In this document: positions 1-62,630 of the stretch, piece by piece
Layout: each line of letters starts with the position of its first letter
Position numbering within the stretch: position 1 is the stretch's first letter
Program-made: the position numbers and the translations under genes
The notes under the pieces: generated by a model
Database searches by the model: none
What the model was told of the DNA's origin: nothing
Seen by the model: only the letters and a program-made list of their open reading frames with translations
NCBI RefSeq assembly: GCF_055900595.2
Contig: NZ_CM148325.1
Reading direction: 5' to 3' (one strand)
Length of the DNA stretch: 64,000 nucleotides

Positions 1-63
1 TCTGCGTCATTCCGGAGTTTATGAGGCACTAAGGCGAACATAAGAGATGGAATGAGCATCTAC
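1..63 (-). ncRNA. glmZ: GlmZ small RNA, 5' portion (gene runs off the window start)
   Basis: Reverse complement of 1..63 reads GTAGATGCTCATTCCATCTCTTATGTTCGCCTTAGTGCCTCATAAACTCCGGAATGACGCAGA, which I recognise as the 5' end of E. coli GlmZ; position upstream of aslA matches the known aslA-hemY intergenic location. Confidence 0.7.
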
Positions 64-20420: not shown

Positions 20421-20750
20421 TTACGCCAGGTTAGCGTCGAGGAACTCTTTCAACTGACCTTTAGACAGTGCGCCCACTTTGGTTGCCGCCACTTCACCGT
20501 TTTTGAACAGCAGCAGAGTCGGGATACCACGGATGCCATATTTCGGCGCAGTGCCAGGGTTTTGATCGATGTTCAGTTTTGCAACGGTCAGTTTGCCCTG
20601 ATATTCGTCAGCGATTTCATCCAGAATCGGGGCGATCATTTTGCACGGACCGCACCACTCTGCCCAGAAATCAACGAGGATCGCCCCGTCCGCTTTGAGT
20701 ACATCCGTGTCAAAACTGTCGTCAGTCAGGTGAATAATTTTATCGCTCAT
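20421..20750 (-). CDS. trxA: thioredoxin 1
   Basis: 109-aa product [53 protein letters not shown]... with WCGPC active site; the track ORF is N-extended. Confidence 0.97.
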
Positions 20751-20880
20751 ATATAACTCCACAGGAATAAGCCTGGCGTGTTGGTTTCGTTGTTGGTGTA
20801 ACATTAACCAACTAAAGGTTGACTTTATTTCACCGGATACGCTTTCGTAAAGCAATAGTAAGCTGATATTCTACCACACT

Positions 20881-35950: not shown

Positions 35951-36049
35951 CTAAGCCTTTCCTCGTCCAAGTGCAGCCCCGCACGGTGGGATAATAATCA
36001 CCACCACGCTAATCACGACCAGGCTAATCACTCGTAGAAGGGCTGTCAT
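35951..36049 (-). CDS. ilvL: ilvGMEDA leader peptide
   Basis: 32-codon ORF MTALLRVISLVVISVVVIIIPPCGAALGRGKA rich in Leu/Val/Ile regulatory codons. Confidence 0.9.
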   Translation of the reverse strand: MTALLRVISLVVISVVVIIIPPCGAALGRGKA

Positions 36050-36401
36050 TTTGTCTTTTCTTGCATCTTGTTCGAAGGAATGCCTAAAGAGTTACCATAG
36101 ATTTTGCGAATAGCACAAGATATTTTTTGGCCGATTTTTATGATGCCTTTAATAATTTCAATAGAAATTGTTGTTTTTTAAAAAGAAAACAGTGAGTGAA
36201 AAAAATTCAATTTCAGTATGAATGTTGTTCCCTTCCTCGTAGTTAATCCTTTGTCCACTGCATTTTTGCGAGCATCGTTCCACCGCCAGAACAACTCAAC
36301 TTCACTTGCACAAATAAACAGGAATCAGCCACTAAAATTCACGAATTAGCGGGCTACAGCAGCGATATCTTATGCACATAATGGCGACTCAAGGAGGGCT
36401 T

Positions 36402-37922
36402 ATGTCACTGTCAATTGTTCATACCCGCGCAGCCCTGGGAGTAAATGCGCCCCCAATCACTGTTGAGGTACATATCAGTAAAGGTCTACCCGGCTTAACG
36501 ATGGTGGGCTTACCAGAAACAACGGTAAAAGAAGCTCGCGATCGCGTGCGCAGCGCCATTATCAATAGCGGATATGAATATCCGGCGAAAAAAATCACCA
36601 TCAACCTTGCTCCAGCCGATCTGCCAAAAGAAGGGGGACGATATGATTTACCTATCGCCATTGCGTTGCTGGCAGCCTCAGAACAGCTTACAGCCAATAA
36701 GTTAGATGAATATGAATTAGTCGGAGAACTGGCGCTTACAGGCGCTCTGCGTGGCGTTCCCGGCGCAATCTCCAGTGCAACTGAAGCCATTAAGTCGGGC
36801 AGAAAAATTATCGTCGCGAAAGATAACGAGGATGAAGTGGGGCTAATTAACGGTGAAGGATGCCTGATAGCCGATCATCTGCAGGCTGTCTGTGCGTTTC
36901 TGGAGGGTAAGCACGCTCTCGAACGCCCGAAACCAACTGATGCAGTATCCCGGGCGCTACAACATGATCTCAGTGATGTTGTCGGTCAGGAGCAAGGAAA
37001 GCGAGGACTGGAAATTACCGCAGCTGGCGGGCACAACCTTTTACTGATTGGACCGCCGGGAACAGGTAAAACAATGCTCGCCAGCCGTATTAATGGCCTG
37101 TTGCCAGATTTAAGCAATGAAGAGGCACTGGAGAGCGCTGCGATATTAAGTCTGGTAAATGCTGAATCAGTACAAAAACAATGGCGGCAGCGCCCGTTCC
37201 GCTCACCGCATCACAGTGCGTCGTTAACTGCGATGGTGGGCGGTGGTGCAATTCCAGGGCCTGGTGAAATTTCGCTGGCGCATAACGGCGTGCTTTTTCT
37301 TGATGAGCTACCTGAATTTGAACGGCGTACACTGGATGCCTTGCGAGAGCCGATTGAATCCGGGCAGATCCATCTTTCACGCACGCGAGCAAAAATAACC
37401 TATCCAGCCCGTTTCCAGCTTGTCGCGGCGATGAATCCCAGCCCTACCGGACATTATCAGGGAAACCATAACCGCTGCACACCAGAGCAAACGCTGCGTT
37501 ATCTCAACCGACTCTCTGGTCCCTTTCTTGACCGATTCGACCTCTCACTGGAGATCCCACTACCGCCACCCGGTATTTTGAGTAAAGCGGTTGTTCAGGG
37601 GGAAAACAGCGCCACCGTTAAACAACGCGTAATGGCCGCCAGAGAGCGCCAATTTAAGCGGCAGAATAAACTGAATGCCTGGCTGGATAGTCCGGAAATA
37701 CGCCAATTCTGCAAGCTTGAGAGCGAAGATGCGCAGTGGCTGGAAGAAACGCTGATCCATCTGGGGTTATCGATTCGTGCCTGGCAGCGGTTACTGAAAG
37801 TTGCACGAACCATTGCTGATATTGATCAGTCCGACATTATCACACGTCAGCATTTGCAGGAGGCAGTTAGCTATCGTGCCATTGACCGTTTGCTCATCCA
37901 TCTGCAAAAACTACTGACATAA
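36402..37922 (+). CDS. comM: Mg-chelatase-like AAA+ ATPase, competence protein ComM family
   Basis: Start at MSLSIVHTRAALGV after AAGGAGGG SD; Walker A GPPGTGKTMLA, ChlI/MCM-like AAA+ domain; the track ORF is 10 codons longer. Confidence 0.9.
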   Translation: MSLSIVHTRAALGVNAPPITVEVHISKGLPGLTMVGLPETTVKEARDRVRSAIINSGYEYPAKKITINLAPADLPKEGGRYDLPIAIALLAASEQLTANKLDEYELVGELALTGALRGVPGAISSATEAIKSGRKIIVAKDNEDEVGLINGEGCLIADHLQAVCAFLEGKHALERPKPTDAVSRALQHDLSDVVGQEQGKRGLEITAAGGHNLLLIGPPGTGKTMLASRINGLLPDLSNEEALESAAILSLVNAESVQKQWRQRPFRSPHHSASLTAMVGGGAIPGPGEISLAHNGVLFLDELPEFERRTLDALREPIESGQIHLSRTRAKITYPARFQLVAAMNPSPTGHYQGNHNRCTPEQTLRYLNRLSGPFLDRFDLSLEIPLPPPGILSKAVVQGENSATVKQRVMAARERQFKRQNKLNAWLDSPEIRQFCKLESEDAQWLEETLIHLGLSIRAWQRLLKVARTIADIDQSDIITRQHLQEAVSYRAIDRLLIHLQKLLT

Positions 37923-59370: not shown

Positions 59371-59829
59371 ATGGAAAATTATCTGATCGACAATCTGGAC
59401 CGTGGCATCCTGGAAGCATTAATGGGCAATGCGCGCACCGCTTACGCCGAACTGGCGAAACAATTTGGCGTCAGTCCGGGGACAATTCACGTTCGAGTAG
59501 AGAAAATGAAGCAGGCGGGGATCATTACCGGGGCACGTATTGATGTCAGCCCGAAGCAGCTCGGTTATGACGTAGGCTGCTTTATCGGCATTATATTAAA
59601 GAGCGCCAAAGACTATCCTTCCGCGCTGGCAAAGCTGGAAAGCCTCGATGAAGTCACTGAAGCCTATTACACAACTGGCCACTACAGCATCTTTATCAAA
59701 GTGATGTGCCGTTCGATCGATGCTCTCCAGCATGTACTTATCAACAAGATCCAAACAATTGATGAAATTCAGTCCACCGAGACATTGATCGTCCTGCAGA
59801 ACCCGATCATGCGTACCATCAAGCCCTGA
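59371..59829 (+). CDS. asnC: Lrp/AsnC-family transcriptional regulator AsnC
   Basis: 152-aa ORF with N-terminal HTH (ARTAYAELAKQFGVSPGTIHVRVEKM) and RAM domain; divergent from asnA. Confidence 0.97.
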   Translation: MENYLIDNLDRGILEALMGNARTAYAELAKQFGVSPGTIHVRVEKMKQAGIITGARIDVSPKQLGYDVGCFIGIILKSAKDYPSALAKLESLDEVTEAYYTTGHYSIFIKVMCRSIDALQHVLINKIQTIDEIQSTETLIVLQNPIMRTIKP

Positions 59830-59850
59830 TCGGCTTTTTTAATCCCATAC

Positions 59851-59890
59851 TTTTCCACAGGTAGATCCCAACGCGTTCACAGCGTACAAT
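59851..59890 (+). promoter_or_regulatory. mioC promoter region with DnaA box
   Basis: TTTTCCACA DnaA-box-like 9-mer (59851..59859) upstream of a TACAAT -10-like hexamer (59885..59890) before mioC. Confidence 0.55.
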
Positions 59891-59918
59891 ACGCCACTCT
59901 TAATAAAGGTGGCGGTTT

Positions 59919-60362
59919 ATGGCAGATATCACTCTTATCAGCGGCAGCACCCTCGGCGGTGCCGAATATGTAGCAGAACACCTGGCTGAAAAGCTGGAAG
60001 AGGCGGGTTTTACCACCGAAACGCTGCACGGTCCGCTGTTGGAAGATTTATCTGCCTCTGGGATCTGGCTGGTTATCAGCTCAACCCACGGTGCCGGAGA
60101 TATTCCGGACAACCTTTCTCCTTTCTATGAAGCATTGCAGGAACAGAAGCCCGATCTTTCTGCGGTCCGCTTTGGCGCAATCGGTATTGGTAGTCGTGAA
60201 TATGACACCTTTTGTGGGGCTATCGATAAACTCAAGGCAGAACTCAAAAATTCCGGTGCAAAACAGACAGGCGAAACACTGAAGATCAACATCCTTGATC
60301 ACGAAATTCCGGAAGATCCGGCAGAAGAATGGCTGGGATCGTGGATTAATTTACTCAAATAA
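59919..60362 (+). CDS. mioC: flavodoxin-like FMN protein MioC
   Basis: 147-aa ORF MADITLISGSTLGGAEYVAEHLAEKLEEAGF... (flavodoxin fold), transcribed toward oriC. Confidence 0.95.
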   Translation: MADITLISGSTLGGAEYVAEHLAEKLEEAGFTTETLHGPLLEDLSASGIWLVISSTHGAGDIPDNLSPFYEALQEQKPDLSAVRFGAIGIGSREYDTFCGAIDKLKAELKNSGAKQTGETLKINILDHEIPEDPAEEWLGSWINLLK

Positions 60363-60384
60363 GTATACAGATCGTGCGATCTAC

Positions 60385-60652
60385 TGTGGATAACTCTGTC
60401 AGGAAGCTTGGATCAACCGGTAGTTATCCAAAGAACAACGGTTGTTCAGTTTTTGAGTTGTGTATAACCCCTCATTCTGATCCCAGCTTATACGGTCCAG
60501 GATCACCGATCATTCACAGTTAATGATCCTTTCCAGGTTGTTGATCTTAAAAGCCGGATCCTTGTTATCCACAGGGAAGTGCGATCCTAATAAGAGATCA
60601 CAATAGAACAGATCTCTAAATAAATAGATCTTCTTTTTAATACCCAGGATCC
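60385..60652. other. oriC: chromosomal replication origin oriC
   Basis: Reverse complement of canonical E. coli oriC: DnaA boxes R4 (60385..60393 tgtggataa), R3 (60424..60432), R2 (60459..60467), R5/M (60510..60518), R1 (60565..60573 ttatccaca); three AT-rich 13-mers at 60587..60599, 60602..60614, 60618..60630; 13 GATC sites; BamHI site ggatcc at 60647..60652. Confidence 0.97.
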
Positions 60653-60740
60653 CAGGTCTTTCTCAAGCCGACAAAGTTGAGTAGAATCCACGGCCCGGGC
60701 TTCAATCCATTTTCATACCGCGTTATGCGAGGCAATCACC

Positions 60741-62630
60741 ATGTTTTATCCGGATCCTTTTGACGTCATCATCATTGGCGGGGGTCATGCAGGCACCGAG
60801 GCCGCGATGGCCGCGGCGCGTATGGGTCAACAGACTCTGCTTTTGACACACAATATCGACACGCTGGGGCAGATGAGCTGCAACCCGGCGATCGGCGGTA
60901 TTGGGAAGGGACATCTGGTAAAAGAAGTGGATGCACTCGGCGGTCTGATGGCGAAAGCGATCGATCAGGCGGGTATCCAGTTTAGGATACTAAACGCAAG
61001 CAAGGGACCGGCAGTTCGCGCTACCCGAGCTCAGGCGGATCGTGTGCTCTACCGTCAGGCAGTACGTACGGCGCTGGAGAATCAACCGAATCTGATGATC
61101 TTCCAGCAGGCGGTTGAAGATCTTATTGTCGAAAATGATCGCGTGGTCGGTGCTGTTACCCAAATGGGACTGAAGTTCCGTGCCAAAGCCGTCGTGCTCA
61201 CCGTTGGGACGTTCCTCGACGGTAAAATTCATATCGGTCTGGATAACTACAGCGGTGGCCGTGCTGGTGATCCGCCGTCCATTCCGCTCTCTCGCCGTTT
61301 GCGTGAACTGCCGCTGCGCGTTGGTCGTCTGAAAACCGGGACACCGCCGCGTATTGATGCGCGTACTATCGACTTCAGCGTGCTGGCGCAACAGCATGGC
61401 GATAACCCAATGCCGGTATTCTCGTTTATGGGCAATGCGTCCCAGCATCCACAGCAGGTGCCGTGTTATATCACTCATACCAACGAGAAAACCCATGATG
61501 TGATCCGCAGTAACCTCGATCGTAGCCCAATGTACGCAGGGGTGATCGAAGGTGTCGGCCCACGCTACTGTCCGTCGATCGAAGACAAAGTCATGCGCTT
61601 CGCCGACAGAAATCAGCATCAGATCTTCCTTGAACCGGAAGGGCTGACCTCTAACGAAATTTATCCGAACGGTATCTCCACCAGCCTGCCGTTCGATGTG
61701 CAGATGCAAATCGTCCGCTCCATGCAGGGGATGGAAAACGCGAAGATCGTGCGTCCGGGATATGCCATTGAGTATGACTTCTTCGATCCACGCGACCTGA
61801 AACCGACGCTGGAGAGCAAGTTTATCCAGGGGCTGTTCTTTGCTGGTCAGATTAACGGCACTACCGGTTATGAAGAAGCCGCTGCGCAAGGTTTGTTGGC
61901 CGGTCTTAACGCTGCCCGTCTGTCTGCTGACAAAGAAGGTTGGGCTCCGGCGCGTTCTCAGGCGTATCTCGGCGTACTGGTTGATGACCTGTGCACTTTA
62001 GGAACCAAAGAACCGTATCGTATGTTTACCTCGCGCGCAGAATATCGTCTGATGCTGCGCGAAGATAATGCGGATCTGCGTTTGACTGAAATTGGTCGTG
62101 AACTGGGCCTGGTGGATGACGAACGTTGGGCGCGCTTTAACGAGAAACTTGAGAATATCGAGCGTGAGCGTCAGCGTCTGAAATCGACCTGGGTAACCCC
62201 GTCGGCGGAAGCTGCAGCCGAAGTGAATGCTCACCTGACTGCGCCGCTTTCCCGTGAAGCCAGTGGTGAAGATCTGCTGCGTCGTCCGGAAATGACTTAT
62301 GAAAAATTAACCATGCTGACGCCGTTTGCCCCTGCGTTGACAGACGAACAGGCGGCGGAACAGGTTGAGATTCAGGTTAAATACGAAGGTTACATTGCGC
62401 GCCAGCAAGATGAGATCGAAAAGCAGCAGCGTAACGAGAATACCTTGCTGCCAGCGACGCTGGATTACCGCCAGGTATCCGGTCTTTCTAACGAAGTGAT
62501 CGCCAAACTTAACGATCACAAACCGGCTTCTATCGGTCAGGCTTCGCGTATTTCTGGCGTCACGCCTGCTGCCATCTCCATTCTGCTGGTGTGGCTAAAA
62601 AAACAGGGTATGCTGCGTCGTAGCGCATAA
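60741..62630 (+). CDS. mnmG: tRNA uridine-5-carboxymethylaminomethyl modification enzyme MnmG (GidA)
   Basis: 629-aa ORF with N-terminal FAD-binding [10 protein letters not shown] motif. Confidence 0.97.

What the first reader, a model, noticed from the sequence alone, without database searches (positions are those of the whole stretch)
60385..60652. Window contains the chromosomal origin oriC with a complete set of DnaA boxes, 13-mers and GATC sites
The mioC-mnmG intergenic region is a near-exact reverse complement of canonical E. coli oriC: five DnaA 9-mers in the known order, three AT-rich 13-mer unwinding repeats and 13 GATC sites in about 270 bp. This sets the biological context of the whole window; mioC transcription enters the origin and mnmG transcription leaves it.
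Basis: partly seen in the sequence, partly recalled or inferred. Interest (0 to 1): 0.45.

Follow-up and report, generated by a model that had tools for sequence, protein, structure and literature searches.

The report
E. coli chromosomal replication origin oriC
This stretch is the ordinary, textbook chromosomal replication origin (oriC) of Escherichia coli, intact and differing from the laboratory strain K-12 by only two harmless-looking single-base changes.

Summary
The finding is correct and already known. Window 60385-60652 is the reverse complement of E. coli K-12 oriC. It lies between mioC (59919-60362, +) and mnmG/gidA (60741-62630, +).

Against the K-12 segment annotated 'origin_of_replication' there are no indels and two substitutions. 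The three 13-mers, the AT-cluster, R1, R5M, R2, R3, R4 and the low-affinity sites (tau1, tau2, I1-I3, C1-C3, as I recalled them) are all base-for-base identical to K-12, as is the IHF site.

- **60577:** lies in the variable 13-mer R to R1 spacer. It is a rare, clone-specific allele: the exact 61-mer occurs in 10 of 5,420 complete genomes.
- **60440:** is the unconstrained central base of the Fis site. It is a common allele, found in at least 895 of 5,410 genomes.

The stated interval holds 12 GATC sites, not 13. There are 11 in the minimal origin and 14 in the whole intergenic region. About 1.3 would be expected by chance.

GC skew changes sign at the origin, with the cumulative minimum at 60773. 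Gene orientation flips there too. Four samples from a near-identical complete genome fit an origin at this position.

The window belongs to a small E. coli clone (AST85, Z0117EC0005 and GEMS isolates). Interest is low; the value is as context for the rest of the window.

The parts
60385..60393 (-). DnaA box R4 (TTATCCACA), high affinity; right end of the origin
   Evidence: Perfect consensus; identical to K-12.
60397..60405 (-). Low-affinity DnaA site C1 (TTCCTGACA)
   Evidence: It lies 3 bp from R4, as stated in PMC4451416. Identical to K-12.
60408..60416 (-). Low-affinity DnaA-ATP site I3 (TTGATCCAA), contains a GATC
   Evidence: 2-bp spacing from C1; identical to K-12.
60419..60427 (-). Low-affinity DnaA-ATP site C2 (ATAACTACC)
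   Evidence: the site frame is from my recollection; the stretch is identical to K-12.
60424..60432 (+). DnaA box R3 (TTATCCAAA), overlapping C2 and C3
   Evidence: 1 mismatch to consensus, as reported for MG1655.
60430..60438 (-). Low-affinity DnaA-ATP site C3 (TTGTTCTTT)
   Evidence: 4 mismatches to consensus, as reported; identical to K-12.
60433..60447 (.). Fis site GAACAACNGTTGTTC. The central base at 60440 differs from K-12 (A to C in K-12 orientation).
   Evidence: Exact match to GNNYANNNNNTRNNC on both strands. The substitution is at a non-consensus position. The allele occurs in at least 895 of 5,410 genomes.
60459..60467 (-). DnaA box R2 (TTATACACA)
60477..60485 (+). Low-affinity DnaA-ATP site I2 (CTGATCCCA), contains a GATC
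   Evidence: 4 mismatches, as reported.
60488..60496 (+). Low-affinity DnaA-ATP site I1 (TTATACGGT)
   Evidence: 3 mismatches, as reported.
60499..60507 (+). Low-affinity DnaA-ATP site tau2 (AGGATCACC), contains a GATC
   Evidence: 2-bp spacing within the R5M-tau2-I1-I2 array.
60510..60518 (+). DnaA box R5M (TCATTCACA)
60534..60546 (-). IHF-binding site core (GATCAACAACCTG) between R1 and R5M
   Evidence: Best match to WATCAANNNNTTR in this gap, with 2 mismatches. Identical to K-12. The footprint position is consistent with PMC5716108.
60554..60562 (+). tau1 low-affinity site. The exact 9-bp frame is recalled from memory and is uncertain.
   Evidence: The whole stretch is identical to K-12.
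60565..60573 (+). DnaA box R1 (TTATCCACA), high affinity
60574..60586 (.). Spacer between R1 and 13-mer R. Base 60577 differs from K-12 (G to T in K-12 orientation), a rare clone-specific allele.
   Evidence: The exact 61-mer occurs in 10 of 5,420 genomes. The spacer is the most variable block across Escherichia, while its length is constant.
60587..60599 (-). 13-mer R (GATCTCTTATTAG) of the DNA-unwinding element
   Evidence: the TTATT element is intact.
60602..60614 (-). 13-mer M (GATCTGTTCTATT)
   Evidence: the TTGT element at the M/R junction is intact.
60618..60630 (-). 13-mer L (GATCTATTTATTT)
60631..60642 (-). AT-cluster flanking 13-mer L (TATTAAAAAGAA)
   Evidence: The DUE 60587-60642 is 76.8% A+T against 48.4% for the whole window.
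60660..60687 (+). Promoter-like site upstream of mnmG (TTCTCA-16-TAGAAT), reading away from the origin
   Evidence: Consensus scan only. The position fits the gidA promoter of the literature.
59919..60362 (+). mioC, transcribed towards the R4 end of oriC
   Evidence: NCBIfam NF006531 at 244.5 bits. No terminator-like site lies between its stop codon and oriC.
60741..62630 (+). mnmG (gidA), transcribed away from the unwinding element
   Evidence: TIGR00136 at 1018.4 bits.
59851..59859 (+). DnaA box TTTTCCACA upstream of mioC
   Evidence: Matches TTWTNCACA. Its role in mioC repression is from established knowledge and was not tested.

Best explanation
This is the single chromosomal replication origin, oriC, of an Escherichia coli strain, shown in the orientation opposite to the K-12 map.

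**Mechanism (established for K-12, inferred here from near-identity).**
1. DnaA sits on the high-affinity boxes R1, R2 and R4 throughout the cell cycle.
2. As DnaA-ATP rises, it fills the two oppositely oriented arrays of low-affinity sites: C1-I3-C2-C3, nucleated from R4, and R5M-tau2-I1-I2.
3. Growth of the right-hand array displaces Fis from its site next to C3.
4. IHF then binds between R1 and R5M and bends the DNA.
5. The left DnaA oligomer opens the AT-rich 13-mers and holds the T-rich strand through its TTGT and TTATT elements.
6. DnaB is loaded and two forks leave in opposite directions.
7. After initiation the hemimethylated GATC sites (11 in the minimal origin) are bound by SeqA, which sequesters the origin for about a third of a cell cycle.

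mioC transcription runs into the origin from the R4 side. mnmG transcription runs away from the unwinding element and supplies negative supercoiling.

The two differences from K-12 lie at positions not known to be recognised by any of these proteins, and they leave all spacings unchanged. I therefore expect normal function.
For: **Shown here**
- Gap-free alignment to the K-12 segment annotated origin_of_replication, with 2 substitutions in 268 bp.
- Every named site is present at the expected spacing: 2 bp within each array and 3 bp between R4 and C1.
- The segment is a single-copy chromosomal sequence in 5,424 of 5,426 complete E. coli genomes. It is never on plasmids and always lies between mioC and mnmG.
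- GATC and DnaA-box densities are far above chance.
- The unwinding element is 76.8% A+T.
- GC skew is -0.050 to the left and +0.044 to the right (Mann-Whitney P = 1e-7), with the cumulative minimum at 60773.
- In the near-identical complete genome AST85 (6 mismatches in 37.5 kb), top-strand skew is +0.016 and +0.015 at 0.70 and 1.89 Mb clockwise of oriC. It is -0.034 and -0.030 at 3.09 and 4.23 Mb.
- Roughly three quarters of gene bases left of the origin are on the - strand. All genes for 20 kb to the right (mnmG, rsmG, atp operon, glmUS) are on + (my tally).

**From the literature**
- Site roles and order of assembly.
- SeqA and the 11 GATC sites.
- mioC and gidA transcription.
Against: Nothing in the sequence argues against it. 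There are three limits.
- No functional assay was possible, so initiation at this site in this strain is inferred.
- The right arm of the skew switch inside the window is only 3.3 kb. I extended it with 16.8 kb from a sister genome that differs at 21 positions in 23.6 kb.
- The two positive skew samples far from the origin are only about 1.5 standard errors above zero.
Confidence: 0.97

Rival explanations
1. The origin is functional, but its timing or efficiency is altered by the rare G-to-T change at 60577. That base lies 4 bp from R1, in the spacer linking R1 to the unwinding element. A change there might affect unwinding, the context affinity of R1, or binding of an accessory regulator.
For: The allele is rare: the exact 61-mer occurs in only 10 of 5,420 complete genomes. 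It is confined to one tight clone, since 8 genomes are about 100% identical over 25 kb and the next best is 99.1%. The DUE-to-R1 region is mechanistically sensitive, with strict spacing requirements.
Against: The change is a substitution, so spacing is preserved. The literature describes a spacing requirement, not a sequence requirement. Natural strains that even lack one base in this spacer exist. This 9-bp block is the most variable part of oriC among K-12, a divergent E. coli-labelled genome and E. whittamii, and the very same position is G, T or A. The TTGT and TTATT elements and R1 are untouched.
Confidence: 0.03
2. The sequence is a silent or secondary copy of oriC, such as a relic or duplicated copy, and the strain initiates replication from another site.
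For: A few E. coli genomes show two places matching the query (highest 2 per genome). Alternative origins are known only in mutant backgrounds, such as the oriK sites of rnhAB mutants (PMC12000880, listed).
Against: The context is the canonical asnA-asnC-mioC / mnmG-rsmG-atp neighbourhood. The sequence is intact. Skew and gene orientation switch exactly here. The median number of copies per genome is 1.
Confidence: 0.005
3. The motif cluster is a chance or non-origin DnaA-box cluster, comparable to datA or a DARS site, which titrate or recycle DnaA without firing.
For: E. coli does carry DnaA-box clusters that are not origins.
Against: Those loci lack the three 13-mers, the AT-cluster and the 11-GATC array, and they lie elsewhere on the chromosome. 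This segment is 99.25% identical to oriC itself.
Confidence: 0.001

Closest known systems
Escherichia coli K-12 MG1655 oriC (NC_000913.3, annotated 3925744-3925975; the 245-bp minimal origin)
   Same: Same locus, same flanking genes, same length and same spacing. All 13-mers, the AT-cluster, R1, R5M, R2, R3, R4, tau, I and C sites, the IHF core and all 11 GATC sites are identical.
   Different: There are two single-base substitutions. Window 60577 is G to T in the 13-mer R to R1 spacer. Window 60440 is A to C at the centre of the Fis site. The window shows the origin as the reverse complement of the K-12 map.
oriC of the E. coli clone AST85 / Z0117EC0005 / GEMS isolates E200086, E400634, E500002, E600003, 100117, 100248
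   Same: 100% identical over window 60340-60760 and about 100% over window 1-25000. AST85 shows 6 mismatches in 37.5 kb.
   Different: There is no difference in the origin. Two of these strains carry a 15-kb element inserted in yifB, about 24 kb from oriC, which the window lacks.
oriC of divergent Escherichia (E. whittamii Sa2BVA5; E. coli-labelled strain SCPM-O-B-8794)
   Same: Same architecture and length. The 13-mers, R1, R5M, R2, R3, R4 and the IHF core are invariant.
   Different: These genomes differ in the R1-proximal spacer, in C1 (TTCCTACCA instead of TTCCTGACA) and at a few other low-affinity or spacer positions.
datA, DARS1 and DARS2 (non-origin DnaA-box clusters of E. coli)
   Same: They are clusters of DnaA boxes with IHF sites, and in some cases Fis sites, that assemble DnaA oligomers.
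   Different: They have no 13-mer unwinding element and no dense GATC array. They sit at different chromosomal positions, and they regulate the nucleotide state of DnaA rather than firing replication.

Membership tests
Enterobacterial (E. coli-type) DnaA-dependent chromosomal origin oriC | Lies in the intergenic region between mnmG (gidA) and mioC | tested here: met
   mioC is at 59919-60362 and mnmG at 60741-62630, both confirmed by NCBIfam equivalogs and by RefSeq annotation of identical genomes.
Enterobacterial (E. coli-type) DnaA-dependent chromosomal origin oriC | DNA-unwinding element: three tandem AT-rich 13-mers (GATCTnTTnTTTT) plus a flanking AT-cluster | tested here: met
   The 13-mers are at 60587-99, 60602-14 and 60618-30 and the AT-cluster at 60631-42. 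All are identical to K-12 and 76.8% A+T (consensus).
Enterobacterial (E. coli-type) DnaA-dependent chromosomal origin oriC | High-affinity DnaA boxes R1, R2 and R4 matching TTATNCACA, with R1 and R4 in opposite orientation at the two ends of the DnaA-oligomerisation region | tested here: met
   R1 is at 60565-73 (+), R2 at 60459-67 (-) and R4 at 60385-93 (-), all with 0 mismatches.
Enterobacterial (E. coli-type) DnaA-dependent chromosomal origin oriC | Two arrays of four low-affinity sites spaced by 2 bp (R5M-tau2-I1-I2 and C1-I3-C2-C3), with C1 lying 3 bp from R4 | tested here: met
   The coordinates give 2-bp gaps throughout and a 3-bp R4-C1 gap, as. There is no substitution in any site. The frames of tau1, tau2, C1 and C2 are from my recollection. 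Those of I1, I2 and C3 are corroborated by the mismatch counts reported.
Enterobacterial (E. coli-type) DnaA-dependent chromosomal origin oriC | IHF site between R1 and R5M, and Fis site at the inner end of the right array | tested here: met
   The IHF core at 60534-46 is identical to K-12. The Fis site at 60433-47 still matches GNNYANNNNNTRNNC exactly despite the change at its central base.
Enterobacterial (E. coli-type) DnaA-dependent chromosomal origin oriC | Dense GATC array (11 in the minimal origin) for Dam methylation and SeqA sequestration | tested here: met
   There are 11 GATC sites from 13-mer L to R4 and 12 in 60385-60652, against 1.26 expected.
Enterobacterial (E. coli-type) DnaA-dependent chromosomal origin oriC | Strand-compositional and gene-orientation switch at the site | tested here: met
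   The skew sign change and the cumulative minimum at 60773 are.
Enterobacterial (E. coli-type) DnaA-dependent chromosomal origin oriC | Bidirectional replication actually initiates here (marker frequency, autonomous replication of the cloned fragment, DnaA dependence) | not testable with these tools
   This needs wet-lab work or read-depth data. It is inferred from 99.25% identity to the experimentally defined K-12 origin.

The most novel reading that the evidence does not exclude
The clone-specific G-to-T transversion at 60577 lies 4 bp from DnaA box R1, in the spacer that couples R1-bound DnaA to the unwinding element. It could measurably change initiation timing or DUE opening in this lineage. 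That would make it a natural oriC allele with a phenotype.
Probability: 0.03. Interest if true: 0.25.

Novelty: already known. Interest (0 to 1): 0.05.

Why it matters
It matters only as context. It fixes the window at the replication origin of an E. coli chromosome. That explains the local strand asymmetry, the co-orientation of the rrnC, ilv, wec, rbs and atp genes with fork movement, and the GATC excess. It also identifies the strain lineage.

The origin is probably the best-studied one in bacteria, and this copy adds nothing new mechanistically. The only mildly useful by-products are allele frequencies for two natural oriC polymorphisms across about 5,400 complete genomes. One of them sits at the centre of the Fis site, which an earlier 59-genome survey reported as invariant.

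Tried and rejected
- **Printed low-affinity site sequences.** I tried to obtain the tau, I and C site sequences from the literature. Rozgaja et al. 2011 is not held. The figures and supplements of the held papers are not available, and a sequence-string search returned mostly irrelevant papers. I therefore used my recalled frames and checked them two ways: indirectly against the published spacings and mismatch counts, and directly by showing that the whole stretch is identical to K-12. The tau1 frame remains uncertain.
- **Cross-species scan.** A scan of genome contigs with an R1-anchored pattern found only two genomes, because the pattern was too strict for other genera. It was still enough to show that the R1-proximal spacer is variable.
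- **13-mer consensus.** On its own it is not significantly enriched window-wide at 2 mismatches, so I did not use it as stand-alone evidence.
- **Promoter scan.** The simple scan did not pick up the mioC promoter, so I make no claim about its position.
- **Rfam.** It found no RNA family between 44600 and 64000, so a structured RNA in or near the origin is not supported.
- **Rejected readings.** I rejected a chance motif cluster, a datA- or DARS-like DnaA titration site, and a plasmid or secondary copy.

Full report
**What is there.** Window 59700-61200 shows a 378-bp non-coding stretch, 60363-60740. It lies between a 147-aa ORF (59919-60362, +) and a 629-aa ORF (60741-62630, +). NCBIfam identifies these as MioC (NF006531, 244.5 bits against a cut-off of 158) and MnmG/GidA (TIGR00136, 1018.4 bits). 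AsnC lies upstream and RsmG downstream. A megablast of 60340-60760 against 5,426 complete E. coli genomes hits 5,424 of them. The hits are always on the chromosome, never on a plasmid, with a median of one copy, and always under 'mioC | mnmG'. Eight genomes are 100% identical.

**Alignment to the reference origin.** RefSeq annotates 'origin_of_replication, oriC' at 3925744-3925975 of K-12 MG1655, between mnmG and mioC. The reverse complement of the window aligns to it without a single gap. Within the claimed interval 60385-60652 there are two substitutions, at window 60577 and 60440. A third, at 60345, is inside mioC.

I located each named element first in K-12 and then in the window:

| Element | Window coordinates |
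|---|---|
| R4 | 60385-93 |
| C1 | 60397-405 |
| I3 | 60408-16 |
| C2 | 60419-27 |
| R3 | 60424-32 |
| C3 | 60430-38 |
| R2 | 60459-67 |
| I2 | 60477-85 |
| I1 | 60488-96 |
| tau2 | 60499-507 |
| R5M | 60510-18 |
| tau1 | about 60554-62 |
| R1 | 60565-73 |
| 13-mer R | 60587-99 |
| 13-mer M | 60602-14 |
| 13-mer L | 60618-30 |
| AT-cluster | 60631-42 |
| GGATCC (historical position 1) | 60647-52 |

The site frames are from my memory of the literature, with three independent checks.
- The four sites of each low-affinity array are 2 bp apart, as stated in PMC6070618.
- C1 is 3 bp from R4, as stated in PMC4451416.
- I1 has 3 mismatches to the R-box consensus and I2 and C3 have 4, exactly as stated in PMC4585315.

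The tau1 frame is not verified. The whole stretch is identical to K-12 in any case.

**More than chance.**
- **GATC.** There are 12 sites in 60385-60652 and 11 between 13-mer L and R4, the canonical number (PMC5145175). The intergenic region holds 14. The window average gives 1.26 per 268 bp, and the densest 268 bp elsewhere has 7. Poisson P is 1e-7 for 11 or more and 1e-9 for 13 or more.
- **DnaA boxes.** Three of the six perfect TTATNCACA boxes in the 64-kb window lie within 189 bp here. Only 2.05 are expected for the entire window.
- **13-mers.** At 2 mismatches the consensus is not rare (28 found, 19 expected). Three in tandem on one strand occur only here.
- **Composition.** The unwinding element is 76.8% A+T against 48.4% for the window.

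**The two differences from K-12.**

*60440* (A to C in K-12 orientation) is the central base of GAACAACNGTTGTTC. This sequence matches the Fis consensus GNNYANNNNNTRNNC on both strands, both before and after the change. It sits at the inner end of the right DnaA array, where the literature places the Fis site. The changed base lies 2 bp outside C3. The exact 61-mer carrying C is found in 895 of 5,410 genomes, so it is a common polymorphism. A 2015 survey of 59 genomes reported the oriC Fis site as invariant. Either its site definition differs or its sample missed this allele.

*60577* (G to T) lies in the 13-bp spacer between 13-mer R and R1, 4 bp from R1. The exact 61-mer occurs in only 10 of 5,420 genomes. 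Eight of these are the same genomes that are about 100% identical to the window over 25 kb, and the next best genome is at 99.1%. It is therefore a recent, clone-specific mutation.

Published work stresses strict spacing between the DUE and R1, and spacing is unchanged here. Natural strains lacking one base in this spacer exist. In an alignment with a divergent E. coli-labelled genome and E. whittamii, the only two hits of a cross-species scan, this spacer is the most variable block of the origin. The same position is G, T or A, while the 13-mers and R boxes are invariant. The ssDUE-binding elements TTGT and TTATT are intact. I conclude that both changes are very probably neutral.

**Origin behaviour of the surrounding chromosome.** On the window's + strand, GC skew averages -0.050 from 1 to 60384. 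It averages +0.044 to the right, using the last 3.3 kb of the window plus 16.8 kb from strain E200086, which differs at 21 positions in 23.6 kb. The cumulative G-C minimum is at 60773, and the two sides differ at P = 1e-7 in a Mann-Whitney test on 1-kb blocks.

In AST85, a complete genome with 6 mismatches to the window in 37.5 kb, I took four 40-kb samples. Top-strand skew is +0.016 and +0.015 at 0.70 and 1.89 Mb clockwise of oriC. It is -0.034 and -0.030 at 3.09 and 4.23 Mb. This is the pattern expected if this is the origin and the terminus lies opposite. The positive values are individually weak, at about 1.5 standard errors.

Gene orientation agrees. To the left, rrnC and the rbs, ilv, rho and wec genes are on the - strand, roughly three quarters of gene bases by my tally. 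To the right, mnmG, rsmG, the atp operon and glmUS are all on +. The known exceptions asnC and mioC point into the origin.

**Transcription.** Both flanking genes are on the + strand, so mioC reads into the R4 end and mnmG reads away from the unwinding element. PMC6606810 describes exactly this arrangement: mioC transcription is inhibitory, and gidA transcription is stimulatory through negative supercoiling. A consensus scan finds four relevant things.
- A promoter-like site at 60660-60687 lies just outside the AT-cluster and points into mnmG.
- A terminator-like hairpin follows asnC at 59821-36.
- No terminator-like site lies between the mioC stop codon and oriC.
- A DnaA box, TTTTCCACA, lies upstream of mioC at 59851-59.

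These are consensus matches, not demonstrations of function.

**Mechanism and verdict.** This is oriC. By near-identity it should work as described for K-12.
1. DnaA sits on R1, R2 and R4.
2. DnaA-ATP progressively fills the two low-affinity arrays.
3. Fis is displaced.
4. IHF bends the DNA between R1 and R5M.
5. The 13-mers open, and the T-rich strand is captured.
6. DnaB is loaded.
7. SeqA sequesters the hemimethylated GATC array.

The sequence features and the strand-asymmetry switch are shown here. Actual firing in this strain is inferred.

The feature is already known, and interest is low.

Noticed in passing
window 26052-26501 (+): An intact 149-aa gene between rep and ppiC is annotated in sister genomes as a PemK/MazF-family type II toxin. 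It has no NCBIfam hit at E<1e-5, and no obvious antitoxin ORF lies beside it. From memory, K-12 carries only a pseudogene (yifN) at this position.
   Followed up: partly
window ~36558-36573, inside yifB (~36402-37922, +): Sister strains E600003 and E500002 carry a roughly 15-kb element inserted here. It encodes an integrase, an Icd-like protein, a primase, SSB, a ProQ/FinO protein, an HK97 capsid, a protease, a portal and small and large terminases. It looks like a capsid-forming phage satellite. The window has the empty site and an intact yifB.
   Followed up: partly
window 60440: The central base of the oriC Fis site is C here, and in at least 895 of 5,410 complete E. coli genomes. A 59-genome survey reported this Fis site as completely conserved (PMC4585315).
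   Followed up: partly
window 60574-60586; L009 and L010: The spacer between 13-mer R and R1 is the most variable block of oriC across K-12, the window, a divergent E. coli-labelled genome and E. whittamii. Its length is constant. C1 also differs in the two divergent genomes (TTCCTACCA).
   Followed up: yes
window 1-63 (-): The 5' part of the GlmZ sRNA (Rfam RF00083, 63 bits) is cut off by the start of the window.
   Followed up: no
window 35831-36120 (-) and 20721-20820 (-): There are two Rfam cis-regulatory hits. 'Rev39 5'UTR' (RF02744, 158.8 bits) covers the ilvL/ilvX leader region upstream of ilvG. The TrxA 5'UTR thermometer (RF02773, 78.8 bits) lies upstream of trxA.
   Followed up: no
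window 34165-35811 (-): ilvG is annotated as an intact 1,647-bp gene in the sister genome AST85. From memory, it is frameshifted in K-12.
   Followed up: no
window 60362-60390 (-): A promoter-like consensus match (TCCACA-17-TATACT) overlaps R4 and points out of the origin towards mioC. It may correspond to one of the origin-internal promoters described historically. Not tested.
   Followed up: no
NC_000913.3 3925744-3925975 (L001 1245-1476): The RefSeq 'origin_of_replication' feature of K-12 ends inside C1 and excludes R4 (3925981-3925989). The database feature is therefore shorter than the functional 245-bp origin.
   Followed up: yes
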